64,000 nt of DNA from Escherichia coli phage Wa28. Below the pieces are notes generated by a model. It was not told the DNA's origin and ran no database searches. It saw only the letters and a list, made by a program, of their open reading frames with translations. Positions 1 through 11,054 of the stretch are shown here, piece by piece. Both the position numbers and the translations under genes were made by a program. Location: the sequence record LC788710.1. One strand, written 5' to 3'. How positions within the stretch are numbered: the first letter of the stretch is position 1; every line of letters begins with the position of its first letter.

Positions 1-111
1 GCCAACTAACTATTTCATATTATATAATATACTTATAAATTAAAGAGAAATAATAACTATAAGAAACTATCGGCTAAGTGAGAACCACTATCATTTAACT
101 TATGCACAAAG

Positions 112-208
112 TTATCCACAGCACTTTTTGACTTGACACAATAAGCAACATTTTGGCGACTTATCCACAGACTTATATACAGGTTATCCTACTGTATAAA
201 TATACAGG
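112..208. repeat. Left arm of ~100-bp imperfect inverted repeat: DnaA-box matches TTATCCACA (112-120, 161-169), TTGACTTGACA (128-138), LexA-box-like palindrome CTGTATAAATATACAG (192-207)
   Basis: Read directly; reverse complement of 4202-4309 aligns block by block. Confidence 0.8.
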
Positions 209-456
209 GTAGAATGGTAGCAGTAACAACCGCAATCAAATTTAAGCGGTCTAAAACGCGCTACACGGCGTTTTCTCACTGCTGCCCTTATTATAATAAA
301 GCCTTGTGTACGCTTACAGAGAGCTAGAAATAGAAAACGCGCGGTTATCATAAAAACAGGCAGTAAGCAAGAAATAAAAAACCTTTTCTTTTTTCTTGCC
401 CCTAGCGAACAATTATATATATCATTCACTCACCGATTAACGAGGGAGACAAAGAA

Positions 457-1458
457 ATGTCTACTGTAAGAATTGCAGTACCAGCAAACGCCACTATTAT
501 TAATGGTAGTTTGCGCAACCTGCTAGATGGTAGTAGTGCGGCAAGCGTACAACATACCGCTACTATTGTAGAAAAGATTCACGATGAAATTTTAGACAAT
601 AATGATACTCATTATTCAGTTGATGATTTCACGCTATTACTAGACCAGACAAGGGCGCTAGTAATTTTCAACCGTGATTATCACATTTTCCGTAATAGTC
701 GGGGAACTGATATTGATTTTATCATTGTTGGTTATAGTGAGTCTCATAGTGGTTACATTGCGCGATTATATAACGTGCAAGAAAAAGAGCAGGTAACAGC
801 AACAAAAGTAAATAATATCAGACTGGATAGTGTCGGATCGTTATTAAATAGTATCTGGCGTGAATTATCATCCAGTTATAAAGGTGCTGATAGTGACGCA
901 ATCGAAACAACTGGCGTATTGTGTTTTGAACGCGCTACGGGTAACATGTTGATTCCTAATGATTATTTAGAGTATGGGAATGAATCAAACGTTGCAAACG
1001 CTGGATTTACACTTCTCCCGCTTGACAATGTAGCAAAACAGGCTGTACAATCTCAAACTTCAAGCGCAAATGCGCAAACTACTGAAAATAAAGGAAATAT
1101 TATGTCTAAAGTATCTTCTATCGTTGCCGCTAATAAATCCGCCGTTATTAACGCTGCTAAACTGGAAGCGGGTAAAATTGCACTGACTCAAATCACAAAA
1201 GTAGCGGCGAAAAAAGCGCCGTTTATGATTAAAGGGTATATTGATACGCCGATTGGTCGTGTAGTGATCGCTAACCTGCTGAGTGTAGCGGTTGACCAGT
1301 ACGCCCCGACTAACCAGAAAGCGAAAGCGGTAGCAGGCGCGGCAATGGAAGCGGCAATGTTGGAAATGGTACAGAGTTTCAATATTGCTGAAATGATCGA
1401 TGAAATGGTAAAAGGCATTGACATTTCTACCTTTACCCAAAACACCGAAACAGAATAA
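457..1458 (+). CDS. hypothetical protein (333 aa)
   Basis: ORF with GAGGGAG Shine-Dalgarno 8 nt upstream; terminator hairpin follows. Confidence 0.6.
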   Translation: MSTVRIAVPANATIINGSLRNLLDGSSAASVQHTATIVEKIHDEILDNNDTHYSVDDFTLLLDQTRALVIFNRDYHIFRNSRGTDIDFIIVGYSESHSGYIARLYNVQEKEQVTATKVNNIRLDSVGSLLNSIWRELSSSYKGADSDAIETTGVLCFERATGNMLIPNDYLEYGNESNVANAGFTLLPLDNVAKQAVQSQTSSANAQTTENKGNIMSKVSSIVAANKSAVINAAKLEAGKIALTQITKVAAKKAPFMIKGYIDTPIGRVVIANLLSVAVDQYAPTNQKAKAVAGAAMEAAMLEMVQSFNIAEMIDEMVKGIDISTFTQNTETE

Positions 1459-1467
1459 TAATTACTA

Positions 1468-1492
1468 GCGGGGATTATTCCCCGCTTTACTA
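1468..1492 (+). terminator. rho-independent terminator (GCGGGGATTATTCCCCGC + T run)
   Basis: GC hairpin followed by TTT immediately after stop of 457..1458. Confidence 0.6.
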
Positions 1493-1524
1493 TTTCCCTG
1501 TTAATTGTTAGGAGACTAATTATT

Positions 1525-1836
1525 ATGCAACTGAACCAAACCATGTTGGCGCAATTAGCCGAAAAAATGCCGAATAGCCCACACGTTAATTATTCAGATG
1601 ATAAAAGCAATATTCCTGTATGGGAAAAGCAAGGGCGTCCCTTTTTATGGGAACATGTAGAAAGCGCTAATAATTATCATGCTTTCTTTGATCGTGGTTA
1701 TGGCTGGCTATGTATTTTTGTAGGTGAAACTTTGCTGGATTATGGAATGGATGAAATAGTCCGTGATGACGTAATTTTCTTGAATAAAGGATTTTACGAT
1801 GTAGCAAATTCTCTTTATTTCCCTGTTAATTGTTAG
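1525..1836 (+). CDS. hypothetical protein (103 aa)
   Basis: ORF preceded by AGGAG; 3' end lies inside second copy of a 30-bp repeat. Confidence 0.55.
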   Translation: MQLNQTMLAQLAEKMPNSPHVNYSDDKSNIPVWEKQGRPFLWEHVESANNYHAFFDRGYGWLCIFVGETLLDYGMDEIVRDDVIFLNKGFYDVANSLYFPVNC

Positions 1837-1846
1837 GAGACTAATT

Positions 1847-2341
1847 ATGTCAGAAGAAAAATATGGCTTTTCGCTAGAAAGTGTGAATGAAGCTAAACAC
1901 GATATGATCGTTTTAGTTGATTGTCATACTGGCTATTGCGGGGAGGGCTGGACGGAGGAACATTTTGTTCCCGCTGGCTGTGATCTGGACGCTTTCGCAA
2001 ACGAACACGCATATGATAATGCTTCTCGTTTCGGTAGCGATGGGGAAGAAGATGAAGAAACAGGGGAATGGATTGAAAATGATAATGTTTATGCGAGTAT
2101 TTATCATTATCAATTGAGTAAATCCGGTATTTATGTAAATGGCGGCGATCCTATTAATACCGTTATGAAACTAATTATTAAACACGGTGGCGCGGAAATA
2201 ATTGGTAACAAGGCGTTATTATATGCAAATCGATTAAAACAGCTTGTTTATATTCCTGATAATTCCCGTTGGGATGAATATGCCGTTTTACAGAAAGAAC
2301 TAAAACGCTGTTTCGGTGTGGAAGCATTAGAAATAGTCTAA
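1847..2341 (+). CDS. hypothetical protein (164 aa), Cys/His-rich N-terminal half
   Basis: ORF preceded by AGGAG in repeated leader. Confidence 0.6.
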   Translation: MSEEKYGFSLESVNEAKHDMIVLVDCHTGYCGEGWTEEHFVPAGCDLDAFANEHAYDNASRFGSDGEEDEETGEWIENDNVYASIYHYQLSKSGIYVNGGDPINTVMKLIIKHGGAEIIGNKALLYANRLKQLVYIPDNSRWDEYAVLQKELKRCFGVEALEIV

Positions 2342-2357
2342 TGTAAAGTTTTGTAAA

Positions 2358-2384
2358 GGTCGCCTATTATGGCGACCTTTTTTG
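2358..2384 (+). terminator. rho-independent terminator (GGTCGCC..GGCGACC + TTTTTT)
   Basis: Perfect 7-bp stem followed by T6 right after stop at 2341. Confidence 0.7.
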
Positions 2385-2448
2385 TTATAATGCCTTTACA
2401 CCGAAACGGTGGGTTGAAAATTTTCCCTGATTTCTAGGAGGCGTTAAA

Positions 2449-2676
2449 ATGGTACATTCATCATCTTCTGCAATTTTTAACGGTATGGAATGGGTATCCG
2501 TTCCCGCTATTGTCAGCGTTATGGTTTCTGAGTTCGGCATAGGTAAAACTTATGTTACCATTCAGGGGCTTTACGACAATGACAAGATTGACCAGCAAAC
2601 CGCCGGATTTTTGCTGGATGAATTGAAAGCTAACCATTGCACTAAAAAGCAAGCGGCAAAAATTGTTTTAATGTAA
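2449..2676 (+). CDS. hypothetical protein (75 aa)
   Basis: ORF with TTCTAGGAGG leader. Confidence 0.5.
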   Translation: MVHSSSSAIFNGMEWVSVPAIVSVMVSEFGIGKTYVTIQGLYDNDKIDQQTAGFLLDELKANHCTKKQAAKIVLM

Positions 2677-2722
2677 TTATTAAAGGGGGTATATTATCCC
2701 CTAATTTCTAGGAGCTAATAAA

Positions 2723-2872
2723 ATGGTTATTTTTCGATCTATTCTGGCTAGTATCTTGGGCGCTATTTTATCGCTGTTTGTAATAGCTTTCGGCGTTCAC
2801 GTGGTTATTATTGGAGCAGGTATCGCGGGGTTTTCTTACTTGTTAGGCTGTATGACTGGTAAAGGGGAATAA
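2723..2872 (+). CDS. small hydrophobic membrane peptide (49 aa, MVIFRSILASILGAILSLFVIAFG...)
   Basis: Not in ORF track (<60 aa); hand-translated; same TTCTAGGAG leader as upstream gene. Confidence 0.35.
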   Translation: MVIFRSILASILGAILSLFVIAFGVHVVIIGAGIAGFSYLLGCMTGKGE

Positions 2873-2874
2873 AA

Positions 2875-3087
2875 ATGTTAAAGAATGTTTCCCTTGCCCG
2901 TTCCAAAGGTTTTAAGCTGGTGGATGTTAACACGTTCGAGCGTCCAGATTGTAAAATTGAATATGTAGCACGCAACAAAAATGCTTTCCGTGTTACAGAA
3001 AAGAAGTTTGACAAGCGCGGCAATTTGGTAGCCGAAACGATTAAACACTTTGCCACCTTTTACGCTGCATTTCGTGGGGTATTATAA
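2875..3087 (+). CDS. hypothetical protein (70 aa)
   Basis: ORF tightly packed after previous gene. Confidence 0.45.
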   Translation: MLKNVSLARSKGFKLVDVNTFERPDCKIEYVARNKNAFRVTEKKFDKRGNLVAETIKHFATFYAAFRGVL

Positions 3088-3193
3088 TGGAAAGGGCAAT
3101 TGTTAAAATGTTAACTTTTGTTTGTGGCGTGTCTAGTGCTGCAATGTTGATCACGCTAGTGATTATGATTATCCGTGACGCGAGGATCTTTTA

Positions 3194-3538
3194 ATGGTAA
3201 TTTATGAGGGCAATCGCTTTATTACTAATTGCCGTCCGGCATTATTAGCAAACTATTTAAATCAGCTTTCACCAGTTTATAAAGGCGTAGTTAATATCTA
3301 TGAGGGCAAAGCACATTATAAAATTTCTGCCGTTGTCGCCCGTGAACTAGCGTTTCAATTTTTAACTTTTGGGTCTTGTGACGTTCAGGTTATGGGGGAA
3401 GCGTTAATAGCGGAAAATGAAAATGAATTTATTGACATTTTCCGCAAAGTATGTACGGAGCGCCTGATTATGAAAGGCGCATATATTCAATCAACCGCTG
3501 AAAGTATTGAAACAGCGTTTCGAAAGGTGGCGCAATGA
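3194..3538 (+). CDS. hypothetical protein (114 aa)
   Basis: ORF; stop overlaps start of next ORF. Confidence 0.55.
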   Translation: MVIYEGNRFITNCRPALLANYLNQLSPVYKGVVNIYEGKAHYKISAVVARELAFQFLTFGSCDVQVMGEALIAENENEFIDIFRKVCTERLIMKGAYIQSTAESIETAFRKVAQ

Positions 3539-3735
3539 CTAAAGATGAAGCACTAGAAAAAATGAAACAAGGTTTCAAAGTTAGTAATCAATATTTTACT
3601 AGCGATGAATTTTTGTACATGAAAGAAAACGGCGTGATCATGTCAGAAGATGGTTACAATTTTAATGATTGGTTTTTCAATATTCGCAAGGGGGAGGAAT
3701 GGAAGCTAGACGGTTGGAGCGTTTACCGTGAATAG
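3535..3735 (+). CDS. hypothetical protein (66 aa)
   Basis: ORF with ATGA-type overlap to upstream gene. Confidence 0.5.
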   Translation: MTKDEALEKMKQGFKVSNQYFTSDEFLYMKENGVIMSEDGYNFNDWFFNIRKGEEWKLDGWSVYRE

Positions 3736-3861
3736 CTGGTGGCGAAAAACACAAAGCCATAAATCTAATAATACCGCTGGGAAACATTCCCAGCGTTTAC
3801 GATTTGGTAATGGCTTTACAATGATATTGATAATCATTCTCATTCTAGGAGCGATGGCGTT

Positions 3862-4056
3862 ATGAGTGATAAAATTGTTGTAACTAAAACTACTGTTACC
3901 GTTGATACTTTCTTTGTGCCTGATACGCTGGAAAATCGGCAAGCGGTGGAGCGTGGCGATTATGATAAAGTGATTTATGATAACGATGGTTACTACCAAC
4001 ATTTGGTAGACTCCTACGGCGAAAGCGAAAAGATCACACATCGACTACCAGACTAA
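3862..4056 (+). CDS. hypothetical protein (64 aa)
   Basis: ORF with CTAGGAGCG leader; terminator follows. Confidence 0.5.
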   Translation: MSDKIVVTKTTVTVDTFFVPDTLENRQAVERGDYDKVIYDNDGYYQHLVDSYGESEKITHRLPD

Positions 4057-4063
4057 TAATAAC

Positions 4064-4090
4064 GGGGCGCAACTATCTGCCCCCTTTTCT
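4064..4090 (+). terminator. rho-independent terminator (GGGGCGCAACTATCTGCCCC + TTTT)
   Basis: Hairpin plus T run just after stop at 4056. Confidence 0.6.
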
Positions 4091-4201
4091 GGCCTCCTCC
4101 AATTTTGCCCTTATTAAAATACCTCCTCCAAAAATAAACGCGTTAGAATGCGTTACAGAGCGTTTAAAGGCTATATTAGATTATTCTCCTACTGGAATAT
4201 A

Positions 4202-4309
4202 CTGTATATTTATACAGTAGAATAACCTGTTAATAAGTCTGTTGATAACGCCTCAAAATCGCTAGGATTTTGTCAAGTCAAATCATGCTGTTAATAAACC
4301 TGTGGATAA
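4202..4309. repeat. Right arm of inverted repeat: LexA-box-like CTGTATATTTATACAG (4202-4217), DnaA-box variants (4240-4248, 4301-4309), TGTCAAGTCAA (4271-4281)
   Basis: Reverse complement matches 112-208. Confidence 0.8.
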
Positions 4310-4319
4310 CTTAAATAGC

Positions 4320-4500
4320 AGTGTTTCTCACTTCCCTTTCTAAATGCGAATCATTATCATTATGCAACTCATTCGCATTCAATTCTGTAAATGATAACCA
4401 TTCTCATTCCACTTTCTAAACGCGAATCATTATCATTCGCATTCAACTTTTTAAATGAGAATCAATCTCATTATCATTCGCATTTCGGCAGGCAGGGCAT
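4320..4500. repeat. AT-rich block of short palindromic/direct repeats (AATGCGAATCATTATCATTCGCATT, AATGAGAATCAATCTCATT)
   Basis: Read directly. Confidence 0.7.
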
Positions 4501-4522
4501 TTTCATTTTGCCCTGCGCTTTT

Positions 4523-5125
4523 GTGCAAATCCGACATTGCTCCACGGGTGTTACGTGCGGGCGTGTATGTGCGAATCCGACAATTTTTGGTAGTGTGCAA
4601 ATCCGATGGGAAATATTTTTATAGTGTGCGAATCCGACAATGAATTTTCCTAAAAACTCCAGCAATCCGCAACTGCGATGCAATCCAGCTGGATTTACTA
4701 GAGTATGTGCAAATCCGACAAGTGTTAAGGTGTGCGAATCCGATAAGATTTTTGTGATTTCGATTGGAGGGTGTGTGATTGTGTGGGTTTGGGGAGAAGT
4801 TGAGAGAGTGAGAGAAAATAAGGGTAGAAACTGGAGTGGGCAGCATGGGTGGCGTGAAACGCCTGGTTTGCTGCGTTTTTGGGGATAATGCGGGATGTTT
4901 TGGCTAGAATTGAGATTAGGGGAGATAAAGCGAAATTTTATTAGCAAAATGGGGCAAAATCGCTTGACAAGTGAAAATTCCTGTGGCTCTAAAAAACTCA
5001 GGCAAATATGGGCCTTCGGCCCGAAATAATGCTGCTATTTTCAGTGTTCCTAAAAACTTTGGAGACTCCTATCAATGTGCAAATCCGACCATAAATTTCT
5101 AGAAACACAGTGTGCAAATCCGATA
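4523..5125 (+). repeat. Eight same-orientation copies of 15-bp motif TGTGC(A/G)AATCCGA(C/T) at 4523, 4568, 4594, 4626, 4706, 4731, 5076, 5111
   Basis: Read directly; irregular spacing; no coding potential beyond repeat-derived ORFs. Confidence 0.85.
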
Positions 5126-5265
5126 GCAATTTCCAGAAATGTGTTTTGGAAAAATGTCTCCTAGAAATAACCGCCCTCCCTATAACCGCCCTGTATTAAA
5201 CCGCCTATTGCTGGAGTTTCTAGGAACATGAAAACCGCCTGAGTTGGCGAGAGTTTTCCTAGAAA
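5094..5265. repeat. Cluster of palindromic TTCCTAGAAA/TTTCTAGGAA motifs and four AACCGCC repeats
   Basis: Read directly. Confidence 0.7.
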
Positions 5266-5490
5266 CTTAGGAGTCTACTAGAAAGTGTTGTGCTATCCTA
5301 GCAGATGAGCGGCAACAGGTGTATCATCTTGAACATTAATTTATCTATTCAACAGTATTAGTTTTTATATAAGTATAAGATCCCCAGGGGATTGTGAGAG
5401 ATGCTCCACCCCTGGGATACGAATTGCGTGAGATGGTACAAAACTTCTGAAGATTTCCCTAGCCCTCCGACAAGCTACGGGGAAATAGAA

Positions 5491-5530
5491 GTTTCCCATC
5501 CACCATCCGTATCCGGGTGGATCTCTTTAT
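5491..5530 (+). terminator. hairpin (ATCCACC..GGTGGAT) followed by T-rich tract
   Basis: Stem-loop then CTCTTTATTCT on plus strand. Confidence 0.4.
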
Positions 5531-5551
5531 TCTATGTTATTTCATAGAGTT

Positions 5552-5580
5552 ATTATAACATGCAGAAATCATAACGTCAA
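5552..5580 (-). promoter_or_regulatory. sigma70-like promoter (TTGACG-17-TATAAT) firing leftward into the repeat locus
   Basis: Reverse complement gives TTGACGTTATGATTTCTGCATGTTATAAT. Confidence 0.5.
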
Positions 5581-5587
5581 GTAGAGT

Positions 5588-6478
5588 TTATTCATCGAAC
5601 ATGAGATTTCCTTTCATCCCCATCTCCGCATACTCCATGAGTTCTCCTAGGGATCTCACAGGGTAATCTACTTTACTGAAGTTATCATAGATCTTACATG
5701 AACTCTCGTACAACTCGTTAGGTATCTGCAATTTGTTATCAGTTAGCTTCTCATAACGTGTAGAAGATTTTGTACCTTCAAACAGAACTGCAATAACTGC
5801 GGCGATTTGTTTGGTAAGATCATCTGCTCCTAGAATTATTCTATTAATAGCAATCGTTACTTCATGCTTAGGTTTCACAGGTGGAAGGATAGGCTTGAGA
5901 TCCTTAGGTAAAGGTTCTGTTCCTAGGAATCCTTCTTTTGTGCGGAACCAATAATTATCTAGATCAGATATTGTCTTAGACTTATTCCATATAGTGAAGC
6001 AAGGTTTATTTCCTTCACGATCTCTGTATTCACGAACTGGAAGATAATGATCAGGGAATGAGTTGAGTGCATCATGCATTGGTGAGCCTGTCTTTTTAAA
6101 TGACAAACCGTACAACTCATTATAATTCATAACTTCATCTTCATAAACATGGAAATCTTTATATGCTGGAAGATTAAACCATTCCTGAAGTGAATGAACT
6201 GCAAAACGTTGTGCCCAAGCATGCATCACAAGAACTCTGTACTCTTTTACTTCATCTTTTGGAGAAGTACCTCTAACTGTTCTAGCTGACCGAATACAGA
6301 ACATCTCAACAACACGTCTCTCGTTTAAAGAAAGCTCAGAGTAACAACGTTCATGGCAACCTTCTAGCATTTCTAGAAGTTCACGTAGTTTCTCTACATC
6401 GACCGGTGGAAAAGGTCTCTCTTCCACCGCGAATTTACCAACTACACCTTTCGGCTTTCTATTACTATAAAATCCCAT
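5588..6478 (-). CDS. hypothetical protein (296 aa)
   Basis: Long ORF, first gene of leftward train. Confidence 0.6.
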   Translation of the reverse strand: MGFYSNRKPKGVVGKFAVEERPFPPVDVEKLRELLEMLEGCHERCYSELSLNERRVVEMFCIRSARTVRGTSPKDEVKEYRVLVMHAWAQRFAVHSLQEWFNLPAYKDFHVYEDEVMNYNELYGLSFKKTGSPMHDALNSFPDHYLPVREYRDREGNKPCFTIWNKSKTISDLDNYWFRTKEGFLGTEPLPKDLKPILPPVKPKHEVTIAINRIILGADDLTKQIAAVIAVLFEGTKSSTRYEKLTDNKLQIPNELYESSCKIYDNFSKVDYPVRSLGELMEYAEMGMKGNLMFDE

Positions 6479-7089
6479 TAACGACCTCTAGCCTTATCTG
6501 CATCAATAGCTTCGAATACTTTCGTTAACATTTCTTCAAGCTCACCTTCTTTGCTAGGATTGCTCAAACGAATAGTATATGAGTTCCTAGAAACTCCTGA
6601 GTCTTCTTGTGCTCCGCGATCTTTTGCAAAGCCCATCATTGCAACGCCAGCTTTATTCCACTCGTCTACGCTAGATGCTTCCCCAAATTTATATGATTGC
6701 GTATTGCTTACCACGCCACCACAAGGAACATTGTGCATATCCGACATTAATCTTTTATCGGAATTATTCAGCATTGCGATTGGTCCCGACTGCCACGGAT
6801 CTCGAATAGTCACTGGAGTACTCGGGCGGTTCACTTCAGTCTTCACGAGTTTGTATCCAGCATCGATTAGTGCATTAATCAGATTATCAGCCGGGATACG
6901 AGCCGTGCCAAAGATAGCACGAGCATTCATAAGCTTAGCCTGAAATTCCTTGCAACCTTGAAGATCAGTGTGCAAAAACGACAGTTGCATAGATTTAAAC
7001 TGTACTGTAGCAGTCAGATCTTTAAAGCTGTAATCCCATGTGTCGAGTTCATGATCTGCAACTACTTTAATGGTTTGTTGTGTAAACAT
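6478..7089 (-). CDS. hypothetical protein (203 aa)
   Basis: ORF, start/stop overlap with neighbours. Confidence 0.6.
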   Translation of the reverse strand: MFTQQTIKVVADHELDTWDYSFKDLTATVQFKSMQLSFLHTDLQGCKEFQAKLMNARAIFGTARIPADNLINALIDAGYKLVKTEVNRPSTPVTIRDPWQSGPIAMLNNSDKRLMSDMHNVPCGGVVSNTQSYKFGEASSVDEWNKAGVAMMGFAKDRGAQEDSGVSRNSYTIRLSNPSKEGELEEMLTKVFEAIDADKARGR

Positions 7090-7274
7090 TATTTATTCTC
7101 CAGTTTATCTAACAGCTTACGAGCTGCGATATTGTGTTGTTTAATTTCTCTGTTAAGAATCTCGTTCTCACAGTTTAACTCTAGATTCTTAGTATTAAGA
7201 CGACTGCAAATCAGTATCAAGCCTAGAATAGTTAAGAGTGAACCGCCCAGTAATATAAGAAGTAATGTTTCCAT
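7089..7274 (-). CDS. small membrane protein (61 aa, TM + coiled coil)
   Basis: ORF, hydrophobic N-terminus. Confidence 0.45.
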   Translation of the reverse strand: METLLLILLGGSLLTILGLILICSRLNTKNLELNCENEILNREIKQHNIAARKLLDKLENK

Positions 7275-7507
7275 TATTTGATTCCCATGTAACGTTTAAG
7301 ATAAACAATGAAGTCTTCCGGTGCATGCTCTAGGCTACCTTGAGCCACGAATAACTTCAGAGCTTCACGTTGTAGTTTAAGAGTCGCCACCTCGCCACGT
7401 AACTTTGTTAGATCCTCTGCTAATTCTCTGGCTCTACGCATAATAACGAAAGATACAAGTATTACTATGAATAACATAACTACTAAGACGCTTGCTACAA
7501 TTTCCAT
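7274..7507 (-). CDS. small membrane protein (77 aa)
   Basis: ORF, hydrophobic N-terminus. Confidence 0.45.
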   Translation of the reverse strand: MEIVASVLVVMLFIVILVSFVIMRRARELAEDLTKLRGEVATLKLQREALKLFVAQGSLEHAPEDFIVYLKRYMGIK

Positions 7508-7794
7508 TAGTTACCCCAAATTAACATCCAACTCTTATCAAAGTTAGATACTCTATTAATTAATTCGCCCATAGAAATGTTATTGTTGTCTATGGCTTCT
7601 TGTACAAACTCTTTACCGAAATCATCTACTAGGTATTCTGTACCATTTATAATAATCTTGTAGAGAGCTGGGACTAAAGGATGTTGATGATTAAGAGGAC
7701 TCTCGTTAACAATTATCTCATTCTTTCCCCACGTCGTCTTGAACAGTTTGTGAGAGAGTAGAGCTAAGGGGTTTGACCAGACTACGTACTCCAT
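7507..7794 (-). CDS. hypothetical protein (95 aa)
   Basis: ORF. Confidence 0.45.
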   Translation of the reverse strand: MEYVVWSNPLALLSHKLFKTTWGKNEIIVNESPLNHQHPLVPALYKIIINGTEYLVDDFGKEFVQEAIDNNNISMGELINRVSNFDKSWMLIWGN

Positions 7795-8260
7795 CTTTCT
7801 TTAACTCCTGTTTTAACTTTTGATCTTTATTATACCAAATTATGTGCTCACCGTCAACTACAAATTTGTGGAAAGGTGCTGGTACGGTGTACACTCCATA
7901 TTCTGTTAAGCGTGTCACAACTTTATGTGCACATAATCGGCAACCATGTCCTTCTAAGTGAGACCGTGCAGTTTGCAAGAAGTAACCATCATGATCTGGA
8001 CAATAGATCTCAACTTGCTGTTGCATAGTTCTATACTTAACTCTCTCGTATCCAAAGAACTTACCATGTGCTTCTACAGCTCTCCTGATAAAGATTAGAT
8101 TAAGTGCATCTTGCTGGAAGTCTGGATGAAGTTGTTTGAGTTTAATTCTATTAATAGATCCATCTGATTTAGTGAATCTATTTATGGGAAACTGTAATGC
8201 TTCCTCATAAAGTAATTCGTTTATTTTATCTCTCATAGTATACACGAAAGGCCAGAACAA
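7718..8260 (-). CDS. hypothetical protein with Cys/His cluster (180 aa)
   Basis: ORF; CPDH...GHGCRLCAH motif. Confidence 0.5.
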   Translation of the reverse strand: MFWPFVYTMRDKINELLYEEALQFPINRFTKSDGSINRIKLKQLHPDFQQDALNLIFIRRAVEAHGKFFGYERVKYRTMQQQVEIYCPDHDGYFLQTARSHLEGHGCRLCAHKVVTRLTEYGVYTVPAPFHKFVVDGEHIIWYNKDQKLKQELKKDGVRSLVKPLSSTLSQTVQDDVGKE

Positions 8261-8281
8261 TTAAGTCCTGGCCTCTAGAAA

Positions 8282-8734
8282 TTAGGTAGCGTCAATGCTC
8301 ACTAAATCCGTTATAAATTCACCTGATTCCATAGGGATAGAGATCGCAGGGTCACATTCACAGGAGGTTATCCATTCGTCCCATTTACTATCAAGTAAAG
8401 AGATAAAGCTATCAGGACTTCCTCTTTCTTTATACCTAGCTAAATATTCTTCTTTTAGCTCTCGTTCTGGATAAAGCAAAATAAAATCTATTCCAGCAGC
8501 ATGAAGAGCATCTCGTACTTCTTTATGGCTAGAAACTAAGATCAGTTTACCTTCTTCTATAGCTTGTGAAATGTGCTCAATATAGTTTGCTGGAAAGTTA
8601 TCCTTCGGGAACTTAGAAGAATCCGAATCTAGTACACGTGGAAAACACTTAGTGAAGTAAGTCTTACCGCACCCTGGAAAAGCAGATATAACATTAAATT
8701 GCATAATTATTTCCTTAATGAAGTTGCTTGCCAT
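8282..8734 (-). CDS. P-loop NTPase (putative kinase), 150 aa
   Basis: Walker A FPGCGKT near N-terminus. Confidence 0.55.
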   Translation of the reverse strand: MASNFIKEIIMQFNVISAFPGCGKTYFTKCFPRVLDSDSSKFPKDNFPANYIEHISQAIEEGKLILVSSHKEVRDALHAAGIDFILLYPERELKEEYLARYKERGSPDSFISLLDSKWDEWITSCECDPAISIPMESGEFITDLVSIDAT

Positions 8735-9164
8735 TTAAGGCCATATCAGCGGTTTCCAGAAGAGATTCAGTAATCTCACGAGAAACTAGATATTCATCAA
8801 TTGAGTGGCGGCGTTTGCAGGCATAAGCATTAACAATCAGATCTAGAGCACCAAGAACATCATGAATAGTTACTTCTTCATCCTTGTCTAACTCTTCTTT
8901 GGTAATCTCAATTAACTGGCCAACTGCCATTAAAAGCCCAAGAATATCTGCTGTTTCGCCTGCCACCAGCGGATTAGCACATCCTACTGTAAGATCGAAA
9001 GCATGATTGACAATTGACTGCCCATCAACGCTTCCTTCCTCAATCTGCTTCTCCAACTGCTTCATCTGCTCTAGCACTGGATTTTTCTTTTGTGTCATGG
9101 TAAAGATTTCCTGTATCAGTTGGAAGGAATGCCGATTGTGCCTTCGGCGGATGTTGTTTAGCAA
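8715..9164 (-). CDS. hypothetical protein (start probably internal, about 9098)
   Basis: ORF; overlaps next ORF. Confidence 0.45.
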   Translation of the reverse strand: MLNNIRRRHNRHSFQLIQEIFTMTQKKNPVLEQMKQLEKQIEEGSVDGQSIVNHAFDLTVGCANPLVAGETADILGLLMAVGQLIEITKEELDKDEEVTIHDVLGALDLIVNAYACKRRHSIDEYLVSREITESLLETADMALNGKQLH

Positions 9165-9507
9165 TCCAGTTGAGGATCAGTACACGGCTAGGAACGATAT
9201 CGGTATTATACCAGAAATCATGAACCCAATGTCGTGCATTTTCAAACTTACCGAACTTATACGCTTTCTTGAACAGCTCAAAACCAAAACAGTCAGGTGC
9301 AAAATCTACATCACGATAAGGAATTACCTTAGATCCGGTGAGATCTTGAATCGCTGCGTTAATCTCTGTATGCGAGAACTTCGTTTCATGGAAAGTATTA
9401 AAGAAGCGGTAATTAAAACGTCCGTTCGTTTCGACAAACAACTGGATGAATAAATCATTAAATTGGCCATCAAACCAGTAATTCTGTAATCTTTGCAGTG
9501 CTGTCAT
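9040..9507 (-). CDS. hypothetical protein (155 aa)
   Basis: ORF. Confidence 0.5.
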   Translation of the reverse strand: MTALQRLQNYWFDGQFNDLFIQLFVETNGRFNYRFFNTFHETKFSHTEINAAIQDLTGSKVIPYRDVDFAPDCFGFELFKKAYKFGKFENARHWVHDFWYNTDIVPSRVLILNWIAKQHPPKAQSAFLPTDTGNLYHDTKEKSSARADEAVGEAD

Positions 9508-9704
9508 TTACGAACCCCATTTATTGCTGCGATAACGCCTTCATACATGAAAGGAAGAACTTGTGAAATGTGGAAATCTTGGACTGTCCAACCAGCTTCT
9601 TGATACATAATGTTAATGATTGCACAACTTAACATAAAAGCTGGTAGAATTATAAAGTAATCCCACGTTGCTTTCTGCAAGTTAGGGTTATAAAAATTAA
9701 TCAT
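9504..9704 (-). CDS. small membrane protein (66 aa)
   Basis: ORF, hydrophobic. Confidence 0.4.
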   Translation of the reverse strand: MINFYNPNLQKATWDYFIILPAFMLSCAIINIMYQEAGWTVQDFHISQVLPFMYEGVIAAINGVRK

Positions 9705-9804
9705 CTGTTTTTAAGTCTCCGTATTACTTTGGCCTGCTCAACGATTATGAAAGCGGCAACCACTAAACCGAAGATTAGGATTGCCGTAACAGTTGTTAAA
9801 TCAA

Positions 9805-10137
9805 TCAAGGCAGACGCCAAATATAATGGGCTGTCCAAAGTGTTTCTGGTTCATCGTCATGATGCATCACTAGGGACTCTGGAGAATAACTATTAGCCAG
9901 TTCTTTACGAACCATCTCACGTTCTTCGCCAGTTTCAATATTTTTAACAATCACTTTCATATTAAGAGGAGTTAGCTCAGAAAGTGGTCGCCATAAGTCT
10001 TCCAGATCTGTTTTAGTTTTATTCTGGATGGATTGCAAGACTTCTAGTGTCTGAGGATCTACATTAATAAACCCACGTTCAGTAACAAAACCTAGAAACT
10101 CGTCCAGCAGGGTTAATTCACTAAAATTAAGCTTCAT
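9805..10137 (-). CDS. hypothetical protein (110 aa)
   Basis: ORF. Confidence 0.5.
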   Translation of the reverse strand: MKLNFSELTLLDEFLGFVTERGFINVDPQTLEVLQSIQNKTKTDLEDLWRPLSELTPLNMKVIVKNIETGEEREMVRKELANSYSPESLVMHHDDEPETLWTAHYIWRLP

Positions 10138-10372
10138 CTTTCAGAATATCCTCGATCATGTCAGAAGATTGCTGTAGTTCGTCTACAATGCGTTTAACGT
10201 CAGTTTTTGTCACTTTACAGGCCAACATCGTGAACAGCATTGCAACGATGATGATAGGAACTGGCAGAACAAACAGTGCTACTTTAGCAACGTTCTTCGG
10301 GGTCCAGGTATGATACTTAGTAACCAGAACACCAACAATAACCAGATAAAAAGCTAAGATAATTAACATCAT
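10127..10372 (-). CDS. membrane protein (81 aa)
   Basis: ORF, two hydrophobic segments. Confidence 0.45.
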   Translation of the reverse strand: MMLIILAFYLVIVGVLVTKYHTWTPKNVAKVALFVLPVPIIIVAMLFTMLACKVTKTDVKRIVDELQQSSDMIEDILKDEA

Positions 10373-10650
10373 TTCTTAATCTCCGTGATTACCTGAGCGC
10401 GCAGGACTTTAATAGGAAGTTTAGTGTTACCAACAAGAGTTTCAATATTCGTTAGCTTTTCTTTAAGAAGATCTGAGCGTCTTTGTGCTAATTCGATATC
10501 TTCTTCCTGTTCAACGAGACGTTTAACTAGCCCATCATTGGTGAGGCGCATCCTATCCATATTTTTATTAGCATTAATAATGCCAATGATTCCACCAATT
10601 GCTGCTAAAGTCGTGAGAACCAGTAATCCAATTAAAATTTCTGTTATCAT
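10369..10650 (-). CDS. membrane-anchored coiled-coil protein (93 aa)
   Basis: ORF. Confidence 0.45.
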   Translation of the reverse strand: MITEILIGLLVLTTLAAIGGIIGIINANKNMDRMRLTNDGLVKRLVEQEEDIELAQRRSDLLKEKLTNIETLVGNTKLPIKVLRAQVITEIKK

Positions 10651-11054
10651 TTAAATACTCCATTAGCACACCACATGGATGGTGGGACTTCTTCTACATT
10701 TCCATAAAATTTGATCTTAAATAAGACACTACCTTTATTTTGGCAGAAAATCTTTCCTTCCTCTACCATAATTTTTGCTTGATTTGTGTCACCAGATCTT
10801 AAAACATCTATTACTGTAACCCCTGTAAATCTGGAGAATTGTTCATCAGCATATTCACCTTGTTGACGGTGTCTCTGCTCCATTTCCATGGCTGCTTTCT
10901 TTGCCTCTTCCCATTTATCCTTATGCTGGGTTGGGGCTTCCTTAACTTCTACTTTATCACGCTGGTTAAGCATGAAATCGGTAACACCGAGTGTGATAGC
11001 TAGAGAGACTAGGGCATTCAGCCCTAGTACAAGTAAGAATTTTCCATTAGTCAT
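10647..11054 (-). CDS. membrane-anchored protein (135 aa)
   Basis: ORF. Confidence 0.5.
   Translation of the reverse strand: MTNGKFLLVLGLNALVSLAITLGVTDFMLNQRDKVEVKEAPTQHKDKWEEAKKAAMEMEQRHRQQGEYADEQFSRFTGVTVIDVLRSGDTNQAKIMVEEGKIFCQNKGSVLFKIKFYGNVEEVPPSMWCANGVFK

What the first reader, a model, noticed from the sequence alone, without database searches (positions are those of the whole stretch)
112..4309. 4-kb small-gene cassette bracketed by a 100-bp inverted repeat carrying DnaA boxes and LexA-box-like palindromes
Positions 112-208 and the reverse complement of 4202-4309 share ordered blocks: a DnaA-box match, TTGACTTGACA, a second DnaA-box match and a 16-bp CTGT-N8-ACAG palindrome. Between them lie about 9 tightly packed plus-strand small ORFs with their own terminators. 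Host-factor sites (DnaA, LexA) on both flanks of a phage pre-early-like module suggest host-state-coupled control of DNA entry, replication or expression, which matters for how a T5-type phage stages infection.
Basis: partly seen in the sequence, partly recalled or inferred. Interest (0 to 1): 0.8.

Follow-up and report, generated by a model that had tools for sequence, protein, structure and literature searches.

The report
T5-type repeat arms carrying LexA boxes
The inverted repeat is real, but it is the already-published repeat pair that flanks the right-hand pre-early genes of T5-like phages; the one apparently undescribed point is that its most conserved block is a near-perfect binding site for the host SOS repressor LexA, which offers a testable lead on how these phages pause DNA injection.

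Summary
Window 76-207 and 4333-4202 form a 134-column inverted repeat (78% identity, E=4e-19) around ten plus-strand small genes.

The window is an Epseptimavirus (T5-like) left terminal repeat. The arms are the orthologues of T5 IRC-spacer-IRD and IRD'-spacer-IRC' (Repeat Regions 2 and 3, the injection-stop region). Their paired DnaA boxes and the variable cassette between them were described by Heusterspreute 1987, Wang 2005 and Davison 2015/2020, so that part is already known.

The LexA reading is not in the literature I could search. The palindrome (T5 "palindrome D") matches the LexA consensus at 19/20 (right arm) and 17/20 (left arm). These are the two best LexA-matrix hits in 64 kb (26.0 and 22.8 bits; next 13.6). 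A box of at least 17 bits follows 87 of 95 homology-located arms; the other 8 are mis-anchored. It is conserved from Escherichia to Vibrio phages.

It overlaps no convincing promoter, so it does not look like a classical operator. Arms and the phage protein A2 are co-inherited (48/48 vs 0/32 loci). The cassette between the arms is flipped in My1 and Spivey.

Best reading: symmetric host-protein (DnaA plus LexA) landing pads tied to two-step DNA transfer. Binding is untested.

The parts
76..209 (+). Left arm, orthologue of T5 IRC-spacer-IRD (Repeat Region 2) plus the palindrome at its inner edge
   Evidence: T5 annotation
78..88 (+). GTGAGAACCAC motif at the outer end of the arm (mirror copy at 4321-4331)
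   Evidence: conserved in T5 and Sw2
100..120 (+). Outer DnaA-box pair: TTATGCACA (100-108) and TTATCCACA (112-120), 3 bp apart
   Evidence: paired-box architecture as in the Davison preprint
128..138 (+). TTGACTTGACA in the spacer; conserved, no matching -10 element found
161..192 (+). Inner DnaA-box pair: TTATCCACA (161-169) and TTATATACA (173-181), plus a third degenerate 9-mer TTATCCTAC (184-192) that overlaps the LexA 20-mer by 3 nt
190..209 (.). Left LexA-type box TACTGTATAAATATACAGGG (core 192-207); 17/20 to consensus, 22.8 bits
244..275 (+). Inner-flank array of AAGCG/AACGC/ACGGC pentamers in 10-11-bp phase (T5 IRB' neighbourhood)
396..425 (+). Promoter-like TTGCCC-18-TATCAT upstream of the first cassette gene. 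It aligns with the T5 promoter region upstream of gene 011, which the 2026 T5 preprint says was characterised experimentally
457..4056 (+). Cassette of ten small pre-early ORFs: 457-1458 (DUF7566, T5 gene 011 homologue), 1525-1836, 1847-2341, 2449-2676, 2723-2872, 2875-3087 (T5 gp015-type Ung-dependent nickase), 3087-3194, 3194-3538, 3535-3735, 3862-4056
4064..4083 (+). Terminator-like hairpin after the last cassette gene
4137..4170 (-). Inner-flank array AACGC x3 at exact 10-bp phase on the minus strand; 4137-4154 also forms a hairpin (T5 palindrome C equivalent)
4200..4219 (.). Right LexA-type box TACTGTATATTTATACAGTA (core 4202-4217), equivalent to T5 palindrome D; 19/20 to consensus, 26.0 bits
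4217..4248 (-). Third degenerate 9-mer TTATTCTAC (4217-4225) and inner pair of variant DnaA boxes TTATTAACA (4228-4236) and TTATCAACA (4240-4248)
4271..4281 (-). TTGACTTGACA, mirror copy
4289..4309 (-). Outer pair: TTATTAACA (4289-4297) and TTATCCACA (4301-4309)
4200..4333 (-). Right arm, orthologue of T5 IRD'-spacer-IRC' (start of Repeat Region 3, the injection-stop region); 88% identical to the T5 right arm
4322..5129 (+). Context: repeat field to the right of the right arm (T5 DRC-like units 4322-4472; GTGTGCRAATCCGAYA units at 4519-5129), the rest of the untranslated stop-signal region
   Evidence: (D1-D3)

Best explanation
Identity (effectively certain). The two arms are this Epseptimavirus's copies of the T5-family inverted repeats IRC-spacer-IRD and IRD'-spacer-IRC'. 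They lie in the left terminal repeat (first-step-transfer DNA) and bracket the variable right-hand pre-early operon. The right arm opens the untranslated injection-stop region.

Mechanism (inferred). Each arm is a symmetric landing pad for host proteins that already exist when the DNA enters. It has two pairs of DnaA boxes plus a third degenerate box in about 12-bp register. These abut a near-consensus LexA operator that faces the cassette, and 37 bp further in lies a 10-bp-phased AACGC array for an unidentified reader. On entry, LexA dimers and DnaA should occupy these sites without any phage protein synthesis, forming a bulky complex at, and possibly bridging, the two arms. The universally present right arm would be part of the cis-acting pause of two-step DNA transfer. 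The phage proteins A1/A2, which are co-inherited with the arms, would override the complex to let the rest of the genome in. LexA would act here as an architectural or roadblock protein, not as a promoter-occluding repressor.

Shown: the sequences, their statistics, their conservation, and co-inheritance with A2. Inferred: binding by LexA and DnaA, and any role in the pause.
For: Identity:
- 92-99% identity to Epseptimavirus genomes at 5.4-11 kb of the terminal repeat.
- Alignment with the annotated T5 repeats and palindrome D.
- The published description matches block for block.

LexA box:
- 19/20 and 17/20 matches to TACTGTATATATATACAGTA.
- 26.0 and 22.8 bits against a next-best 13.6 in 64 kb; chance expectation 4.5e-6 and 5e-4 per 64 kb.
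- The recalled training sites agree with a published table.
- In arms located by homology without using the palindrome, 87 of 95 are followed at once by a box of at least 17 bits; the 8 misses are mis-anchored 23-nt hits.
- Conserved in Tequintavirus, Epseptimavirus, Sugarlandvirus, Myunavirus, a Serratia phage and two Vibrio phages.
- Most variants (CTGG, CTGTAC, CCAG) are ones seen in genuine E. coli boxes.
- It is the most conserved block of the arm, though that ranking comes from a palindrome-anchored extraction.

Selection rather than homogenisation: the right arms of this phage and T5 are 88% identical, while left and right arms within one genome are 76-78%.

DnaA boxes: local clustering, and variability that mirrors the consensus, with W at position 3 and the least conservation at position 5, the N.

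Module: every locus with A1 at least about 44% identical has the boxes, except L010, where little upstream DNA is held. Distant A1 homologues have no arms, no DnaA pairs, no boxes and no A2.

Symmetry: the cassette is inverted relative to A1 in My1 and Spivey while the inner junction to the box is kept.

Host proteins fit the classical finding, cited in the preprint, that the pause needs no phage protein synthesis.
Against: - No binding experiment exists for LexA or DnaA on these arms; a 2023 paper states that functional studies are lacking.
- The boxes overlap no convincing sigma-70 promoter. The 011-type promoter lies about 190 bp away, and promoter-like hits are not above shuffles (23 vs 17.4, sd 4.6).
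- To my knowledge T5 plaques on recA1 laboratory strains, so LexA cleavage cannot be required for infection.
- The left arm is absent in some T5-like phages (Vibrio PG07). It would also be removed in the viable T5 hegG-017 deletion mutant if that deletion is one contiguous stretch, which is my inference.
- Half of the 9-mers deviate from the DnaA consensus at position 6.
- Perfect co-inheritance with the dimeric DNA-binding protein A2 means a phage reader of the palindrome cannot be excluded.
- How a cytoplasmic complex would halt DNA still outside the cell is unexplained.
Confidence: 0.55

Rival explanations
1. The palindrome, and perhaps the TTATnnACAG 9-mers, are operators of a phage protein, most plausibly the dimeric DNA-binding protein A2 that is needed for second-step transfer. 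The likeness to LexA and DnaA sites is either incidental or lets A2 compete with those host proteins.
For: A2 is present in 48/48 arm-bearing loci and 0/32 loci without arms. A2 is a DNA-binding dimer required for second-step transfer. The ATATACAG half-site recurs in the variant 9-mer TTATATACA(G). All 9-mers end in ACAG, which the DnaA consensus does not require.
Against: A 19/20 match to another protein's consensus is very improbable by accident (4.5e-6 per 64 kb). A2 is only 33-48% identical across genera that keep the identical 20-mer, and it has no LexA-like or other recognisable domain. LexA specificity, by contrast, is conserved across these hosts (established knowledge). An abundant host repressor would occupy such a site regardless.
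Confidence: 0.2
2. The arms matter mainly as DNA rather than as protein sites. They would be a duplicated segment that serves as a substrate for homologous recombination, which flips or exchanges the accessory-gene cassette, or as a structural element of the stop region.
For: The cassette is inverted relative to A1 in My1 and Spivey, with gene order kept in My1. Cassette content is highly variable between phages. The preprint reports a variable distance between the arms.
Against: Recombination needs only similarity, not specific motifs. Yet the arms within a genome are just 76-78% identical while particular short blocks stay nearly invariant across genera. Phages with a single arm keep the DnaA-plus-LexA block. 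The cassette encodes no invertase or transposase.
Confidence: 0.12
3. The arms are DnaA-dependent replication or priming sites under SOS control.
For: Clusters of same-orientation DnaA boxes recall oriC. LexA boxes next to them could couple firing to DNA damage.
Against: T5 origins map near the middle of the genome, and replication genes are not expressed in the first-step stage (preprint). There are no AT-rich 13-mer unwinding repeats. The box register of about 12 bp differs from the 11-bp arrays of oriC (own knowledge).
Confidence: 0.04
4. The LexA box is a classical operator for an unrecognised promoter inside the arm, for example a short inward transcript or an outward transcript into the stop region.
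For: There are weak candidates: TATACA-17-AATAAT on the minus strand at 4208-4180, and TTAACA-16-CAAAAT with an upstream TG at 4294-4267. A hairpin follows each arm on its inner side.
Against: The candidates are 9/12 matches, are not conserved at the mirror position or in T5, and promoter-like hits are not above shuffles. Rfam finds nothing.
Confidence: 0.08

Closest known systems
Bacteriophage T5 inverted repeats IRC-spacer-IRD (6022-6152) and IRD'-spacer-IRC' (9332-9462), with palindrome D (9330-9349); Repeat Regions 2 and 3, the injection-stop-signal region (Heusterspreute 1987; Wang 2005; Davison 2015; Davison bioRxiv 10.1101/866236)
   Same: Orthologous sequence (76-88% identity). Same place in the left terminal repeat. 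Same order of blocks, same 3-bp-spaced DnaA-box pairs, same palindrome at the inner edge. It brackets the same variable pre-early operon and is followed by the same kind of repeat field.
   Different: This phage has no HNH-endonuclease insertion to the left of the arm. Its cassette has four genes without a T5 homologue. The published descriptions I could read never call palindrome D a LexA box.
LexA (SOS) operators of Gammaproteobacteria, CTGT-N8-ACAG, e.g. tisAB/istR2, umuDC, sbmC, and LexA sites used by mobile elements (CTXphi, GIL01, coliphage 186 tum; own knowledge)
   Same: A 16-bp palindrome with an AT-rich centre and TA flanks. It scores at or above the best chromosomal operators.
   Different: It lies in a strictly virulent phage, overlaps no recognisable promoter, occurs as a mirror pair 4 kb apart, and is fused in fixed register to DnaA-box arrays.
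DnaA-box clusters outside origins (datA, DARS, the dnaA promoter) and at oriC
   Same: Strong and weak 9-mers in the same orientation in close register. The variability follows TTWTNCACA.
   Different: There is no unwinding element and no evidence of initiation. The register is about 12 bp. Half of the boxes have A or T at position 6.
Stepwise genome entry of phage T7 (entry limited and then driven by proteins acting on the entering DNA; own knowledge)
   Same: It is a staged entry of a linear genome, with early genes expressed from the leading end before the rest enters.
   Different: T7 uses transcription to pull DNA in. In T5-like phages the pause is attributed to a cis-acting site, and the restart to A1/A2.

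Membership tests
T5-family IRC/IRD - IRD'/IRC' repeat pair (Repeat Regions 2 and 3) | Located in the left terminal repeat, between the A2-side operon and the untranslated stop-signal repeat field | tested here: met
   Window 1-5340 corresponds to EPS7 5449-10958 and Sw2 5512-10840, inside the PhageTerm-defined terminal repeat. A2 lies to the left in Sw2, and DRC/DRD-like repeats lie to the right.
T5-family IRC/IRD - IRD'/IRC' repeat pair (Repeat Regions 2 and 3) | Two arms of about 131 bp in inverted orientation, homologous to the T5 arms | tested here: met
   76-207 vs 4333-4202, E=3.6e-19; 76-88% identity to the T5 arms.
T5-family IRC/IRD - IRD'/IRC' repeat pair (Repeat Regions 2 and 3) | Eight DnaA or variant DnaA boxes, in four pairs separated by 3 bp | tested here: met
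   Pairs at 100-108/112-120, 161-169/173-181, 4228-4236/4240-4248 and 4289-4297/4301-4309.
T5-family IRC/IRD - IRD'/IRC' repeat pair (Repeat Regions 2 and 3) | The arms bracket a variable set of small pre-early genes | tested here: met
   Ten ORFs: six with T5 homologues, including genes 011 and 015, and four without.
LexA operator (SOS box) | CTGT-N8-ACAG palindrome with an AT-rich centre, scoring in the range of proven operators | tested here: met
   26.0 and 22.8 bits; the training sites span 13.0-24.6 bits. 19/20 and 17/20 to the consensus.
LexA operator (SOS box) | Conserved at the orthologous position in related genomes | tested here: met
   87 of 95 homology-anchored arms, with the 8 misses mis-anchored; six or more genera.
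LexA operator (SOS box) | Overlaps or abuts a promoter, so that LexA represses transcription | tested here: not met
   No conserved sigma-70 match overlaps either box. The nearest supported promoter is about 190 bp away. This rests on consensus scans only, without transcript data.
LexA operator (SOS box) | Bound by LexA in vitro or in vivo and released on SOS induction | not testable with these tools
   Needs EMSA, footprinting or ChIP.
DnaA-box cluster | Local excess of TTWTNCACA matches, with variability that follows the consensus | tested here: met
   4 of the 9 window matches lie in about 260 bp of arms. Position 3 is A or T, and position 5 is the least conserved.
DnaA-box cluster | Bound by DnaA | not testable with these tools
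   Proposed by Davison; a 2023 paper states that experimental studies are lacking.
Replication origin (oriC-like) | DNA-unwinding element next to the boxes, and initiation mapped there | tested here: not met
   No AT-rich 13-mer repeats are visible in or beside the arms. The preprint cites T5 origins near mid-genome.
Transposon or invertible segment | Terminal inverted repeats together with a transposase or invertase gene | tested here: not met
   No such family appears among the ten cassette proteins. The arm is absent from 5,426 E. coli genomes. The segment is nevertheless found in both orientations among genera, which fits rare homologous recombination between the arms.

The most novel reading that the evidence does not exclude
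Host LexA, together with DnaA, is the long-sought pre-existing host factor of the T5 injection pause. LexA dimers clamp the near-consensus SOS boxes at the cassette-facing edge of the stop-signal arm as it enters the cell. The co-inherited phage protein A2, with A1, removes or overrides the complex to start second-step transfer. The SOS state of the host would therefore tune the timing of genome entry in a strictly virulent phage.
Probability: 0.18. Interest if true: 0.85.

Novelty: new member of a known kind. Interest (0 to 1): 0.5.

Why it matters
How T5-like phages stop DNA injection after 8% of the genome and then restart it has been an open question for about 60 years. A 2026 paper still calls the mechanism poorly understood and lists only repeats, palindromes and DnaA boxes.

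The best-conserved block of the stop-region arm is a consensus-grade LexA operator, kept from Escherichia to Vibrio phages and co-inherited with A2. That adds a second, easily testable host candidate. LexA protein, lexA(Def) and lexA(Ind-) hosts and T5 genome engineering all already exist.

If LexA does bind, this would be a use of the SOS repressor by a virulent phage at a non-promoter site. If it does not, the palindrome becomes the prime candidate for the unknown A2 binding site. The repeat and its DnaA boxes are not new in themselves.

Tried and rejected
1. Cassette inverted in T5 relative to this phage. I suspected this from the preprint's phrase "opposite strand", but the T5 annotation shows the same orientation. 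A real inversion exists in My1 and Spivey instead.

2. Promoter overlapping the LexA box. Only 9/12 consensus matches turned up, they are not conserved, and the overall count is not above shuffles.

3. Known RNA element in the arms. Rfam gives only sub-threshold hits, and those are at a cassette terminator.

4. Arm captured from a host locus. There is no match in 5,426 E. coli genomes.

5. Distant A1 homologues as a natural experiment with a different host LexA motif. These 32 metagenomic loci have no arms, no DnaA pairs and no A2, so they are uninformative on that point.

6. A2 as a LexA-like protein. There is no Pfam family, no PDB relative by profile, and no LexA-type domain.

7. A link through ColIb abortive infection (A2 derepressing the LexA-controlled colicin gene). 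I dropped this because the ibf/abi locus is distinct from the colicin gene and its products are unidentified.

8. Global DnaA-box enrichment. There is none; the enrichment is only local.

9. The first conservation profile was anchored on the palindrome and was therefore partly circular. I repeated it with a palindrome-free anchor.

10. Davison's 2015 review could not be read. Prior mention of LexA there, or in the 1987 paper, cannot be fully excluded.

Full report
**What is there.** The sequence and the repeat finder confirm a long inverted repeat. blastn joins the pieces into 76-207 against 4333-4202: 134 columns, 78% identity, E=3.6e-19.

A pairwise alignment and a motif map show the same blocks in mirror order on both arms:
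- GTGAGAAnCAC (78-88; 4321-4331).
- An outer pair of DnaA-type 9-mers 3 bp apart (100-108/112-120; 4289-4297/4301-4309).
- TTGACTTGACA (128-138; 4271-4281).
- An inner pair of 9-mers (161-169/173-181; 4228-4236/4240-4248).
- A third degenerate 9-mer (184-192; 4217-4225).
- A 20-bp palindrome (190-209; 4200-4219) containing CTGT-N8-ACAG.

Between the arms lie ten plus-strand ORFs (457-4056), nine of them in PHROG families, with terminator-like hairpins.

**Where it comes from.** The first 6 kb are 92-99% identical to Epseptimavirus genomes (Shin27, SE18, EPS7, Sw2). They map to about 5.4-11 kb of those genomes, inside the terminal repeat defined for Sw2. This is the pre-early, first-step-transfer DNA of a T5-like phage.

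The annotated T5 genome has the same layout:
- A1/A2 on the minus strand.
- Inverted repeats C and D (6022-6152).
- A putative promoter, then ORF011-017 on the plus strand.
- Palindrome C, palindrome D (9330-9349), inverted repeats D' and C' (9332-9462).
- A field of direct repeats, then the 7.9% nick.

The window arms align with the T5 arms block for block.

**What is already known.** Davison's preprint (bioRxiv 10.1101/866236) names the two 131-bp arms IRC-spacer-IRD and IRD'-spacer-IRC'. It traces the first DnaA box to a 1987 paper. It shows eight DnaA or variant boxes, in pairs 3 bp apart, in 25 T5-like phages including EPS7. It notes that the coding region between the arms is highly variable. 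It proposes that membrane-bound DnaA holds the DNA at the injection stop signal until A1/A2 release it.

Papers from 2023 and 2026 repeat this description and state that functional studies are lacking and the mechanism remains poorly understood. The repeat, the DnaA boxes and the host-factor idea for DnaA are therefore not new.

**DnaA boxes.** TTWTNCACA is not enriched across the window (9 found, 8.3 expected). But 4 of the 9 matches, and all 3 perfect TTATCCACA, lie in about 260 bp of arms.

Across 77 non-redundant arms, the first inner box has A or T at position 3 and is least conserved at position 5. Those are the W and N positions of the consensus. Position 6 alternates between C and A, which departs from the consensus.

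**The LexA box.**
- The right-arm 20-mer TACTGTATATTTATACAGTA differs at one position from the LexA consensus TACTGTATATATATACAGTA. The left-arm copy differs at three.
- I built a matrix from 28 E. coli operators recalled from memory; nine of them agree with a published table. On it the sites score 26.0 and 22.8 bits. The training operators span 13.0-24.6, and the next-best site in 64 kb scores 13.6.
- Exact tail probabilities give 4.5e-6 and 5e-4 expected sites per 64 kb. The two copies are not independent, because they belong to one repeat.
- The arm occurs in 545 phage records. In Vibrio phages only the inner DnaA pair plus the palindrome is still alignable.
- Direct inspection shows the box at the cassette-facing edge of the arms in T5, Sw2, Klebsiella phage Spivey, Pectobacterium phage My1, Serratia phage Kamaji and two Vibrio phages.
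- To avoid circularity, I collected 80 loci through the A1 protein and located arms with a query that lacks the palindrome. Of 95 arms, 87 are followed immediately by a box of at least 17 bits. The other 8 are 23-nt alignments in which the outer DnaA pair was mistaken for the inner one.
- Most variants (CTGG, CTGTAC, CCAG) also occur in genuine E. coli operators. A few left arms have CAAG.
- The right-arm box is nearly always the perfect 20-mer. The left-arm box typically ends in CAGGG.

**Selection, not homogenisation.** The right arms of this phage and T5 are 88% identical and the left arms 76%. Left and right arms within one genome are only 76-78% identical. The arms have therefore evolved separately since before these genera split, and the shared short blocks are kept by selection. 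No copy of the arm exists in 5,426 E. coli genomes.

**Novelty of the LexA reading.**
- The Davison preprint contains no occurrence of LexA or SOS.
- Full-text searches pairing LexA with T5, T5-like, pre-early or the genus names found nothing relevant.
- The phage 20-mers occur in none of the held papers.
- Davison's 2015 review and the 1987 paper could not be read, so a prior mention there cannot be excluded.

**What the box is not.** It does not overlap a convincing promoter. The conserved 011-type promoter (396-425, TTGCCC-18-TATCAT) aligns with T5 and lies about 190 bp downstream of the left box. The 2026 T5 preprint says a promoter upstream of gene 011 was characterised experimentally. 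Other promoter-like matches near the boxes are weak and are not conserved at the mirror position, and the total is not above shuffles. Rfam finds no RNA element.

**Further anatomy.** Inside each arm, at +37, +47 and +57 from the box, AACGC/AAGCG/AAGCC pentamers recur in 10-bp phase. They appear in nearly all genera and on both arms. The conserved arm is therefore about 215 bp, and its elements sit in fixed register, which suggests a higher-order nucleoprotein complex.

**Link to A2 and A1.** A2 homologues are present in 48 of 48 arm-bearing loci and in none of 32 distant A1-bearing metagenomic loci. Those distant loci also lack inverted repeats, DnaA pairs and LexA-type boxes. A2 is 33-48% identical across the genera compared. 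It has no Pfam family, no PDB relative by profile and no LexA-like domain. Arms and A2 thus form one inherited module. This fits A2 acting on the arms, but it also keeps alive the rival in which A2 itself reads the palindrome.

**The cassette flips.** The DUF7566 gene (457-1455; homologue of T5 gene 011) and its followers diverge from A1 in this phage, T5, Sw2 and Kamaji. They run the other way in My1 and Spivey. In My1 the gene order is preserved, and the last gene ends about 144 bp from the left-arm box, the same distance as to the right-arm box here. This is what recombination between inverted arms would produce, and it shows that the arms work symmetrically with respect to the genes they enclose. 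The preprint noted opposite-strand transcription in those phage types but reported no DNA homology.

**Cassette content.**
- 457-1458: DUF7566.
- 2875-3087: the T5 gp015-type nickase that acts on abasic sites made by host Ung.
- 3535-3735: a weak, sub-threshold Tad2-like match.
- The remaining ORFs have unknown function.

In T5, genes 011, 013 and 015 are toxic when expressed alone, and a mutant lacking hegG through 017 is viable with small plaques. If that deletion is one contiguous stretch, which is my inference from the T5 map, the left arm is dispensable. That would match natural phages that have only the right arm.

**Most likely mechanism.** Each arm is a landing pad for host proteins that are already present when the DNA enters: DnaA on the 9-mers and LexA on the palindrome. 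An unknown reader, possibly A2, would use the AACGC array. The universally present right arm belongs to the cis-acting pause of two-step transfer, and A1/A2 override it.

- Shown: the motifs, their statistics, their conservation and register, the independent evolution of the arms, co-inheritance with A2, and the flipped cassettes.
- Inferred: occupancy by LexA and DnaA, and any role in the pause.
- Against: there are no binding data, and no promoter context. T5 grows on recA1 strains (own knowledge), so LexA cleavage cannot be required. It is also unexplained how a cytoplasmic complex would stop DNA that is still outside the cell.

I put about 0.55 on genuine, selected host-protein sites acting architecturally, and about 0.18 on LexA being a functional part of the injection pause.

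**Verdict.** Most of it is an already-described structure of T5-like phages. The LexA identity of palindrome D is the part worth following up, because it is strong, conserved, apparently unreported and cheap to test.

Noticed in passing
window 244-275 and 4137-4170; also T5 (L001), Spivey (L006), Kamaji (L007), My1 (L005), PG07 (L003), L045, L050: AACGC/AAGCG/AAGCC pentamers recur at +37, +47 and +57 from the LexA-type box, an exact 10-bp phase, on both arms and in nearly all genera. They look like a site array for an unidentified protein. In the right arm, 4137-4154 also forms a hairpin equivalent to T5 palindrome C.
   Followed up: partly
L005 (My1) 7279-9747 and L006 (Spivey) 7789-10590, compared with window 457-4056: The operon between the arms is inverted relative to A1 in My1 and Spivey, with gene order kept in My1. 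This implies at least one flip of the inter-arm segment during evolution, as recombination between the inverted arms would produce.
   Followed up: partly
window 3535-3735 (+): This 66-aa pre-early ORF has a weak, sub-threshold match to the Tad2-like (Thoeris anti-defence 2) domain: PF11195, E=0.005, 17.8 bits against a cutoff of 25.
   Followed up: no
window 1491-1523 and 1816-1848: There is an exact 33-bp direct repeat (TATTTCCCTGTTAATTGTTAGGAGACTAATTAT) just upstream of two consecutive cassette ORFs (starts at 1525 and 1847). It is a duplicated leader with ribosome-binding site. A similar pair lies at 2425-2453 and 2699-2727 (83% identity).
   Followed up: no
window 4322-5129: The field to the right of the right arm holds about 40-bp units rich in GCGAATCATTATCATT (4322-4472) and roughly ten GTGTGCRAATCCGAYA units (4519-5129). 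These are the counterparts of T5 direct repeats C and D in the stop-signal region. Many related records end their match at 5335-5389, probably the end of the terminal repeat.
   Followed up: partly
loci L055-L087 (IMG/VR metagenomic contigs): These 32 loci encode A1 homologues (38-47% identity, N-terminal 60-100 residues not aligned in most) but have no A2, no inverted arms, no DnaA pairs and no LexA-type boxes near A1. A1 therefore occurs outside the two-step-injection module.
   Followed up: partly
L004 (Vibrio phage VCPH) 533, 3025, 3147: VCPH carries three LexA-type palindromes. One abuts a DnaA pair as in T5. Two lie in a diverged second region that has convergent TTATCCACA boxes. The LexA-plus-DnaA combination thus persists where the rest of the arm sequence has changed.
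   Followed up: no
window 184-429 (-) and 214-327 (+): Mechanical ORFs overlap the left arm and its inner flank. Some public records annotate a 'hypothetical protein' over the arm (e.g. BD13 and GEC_vB_N7), which is probably an over-annotation of a non-coding regulatory region.
   Followed up: no
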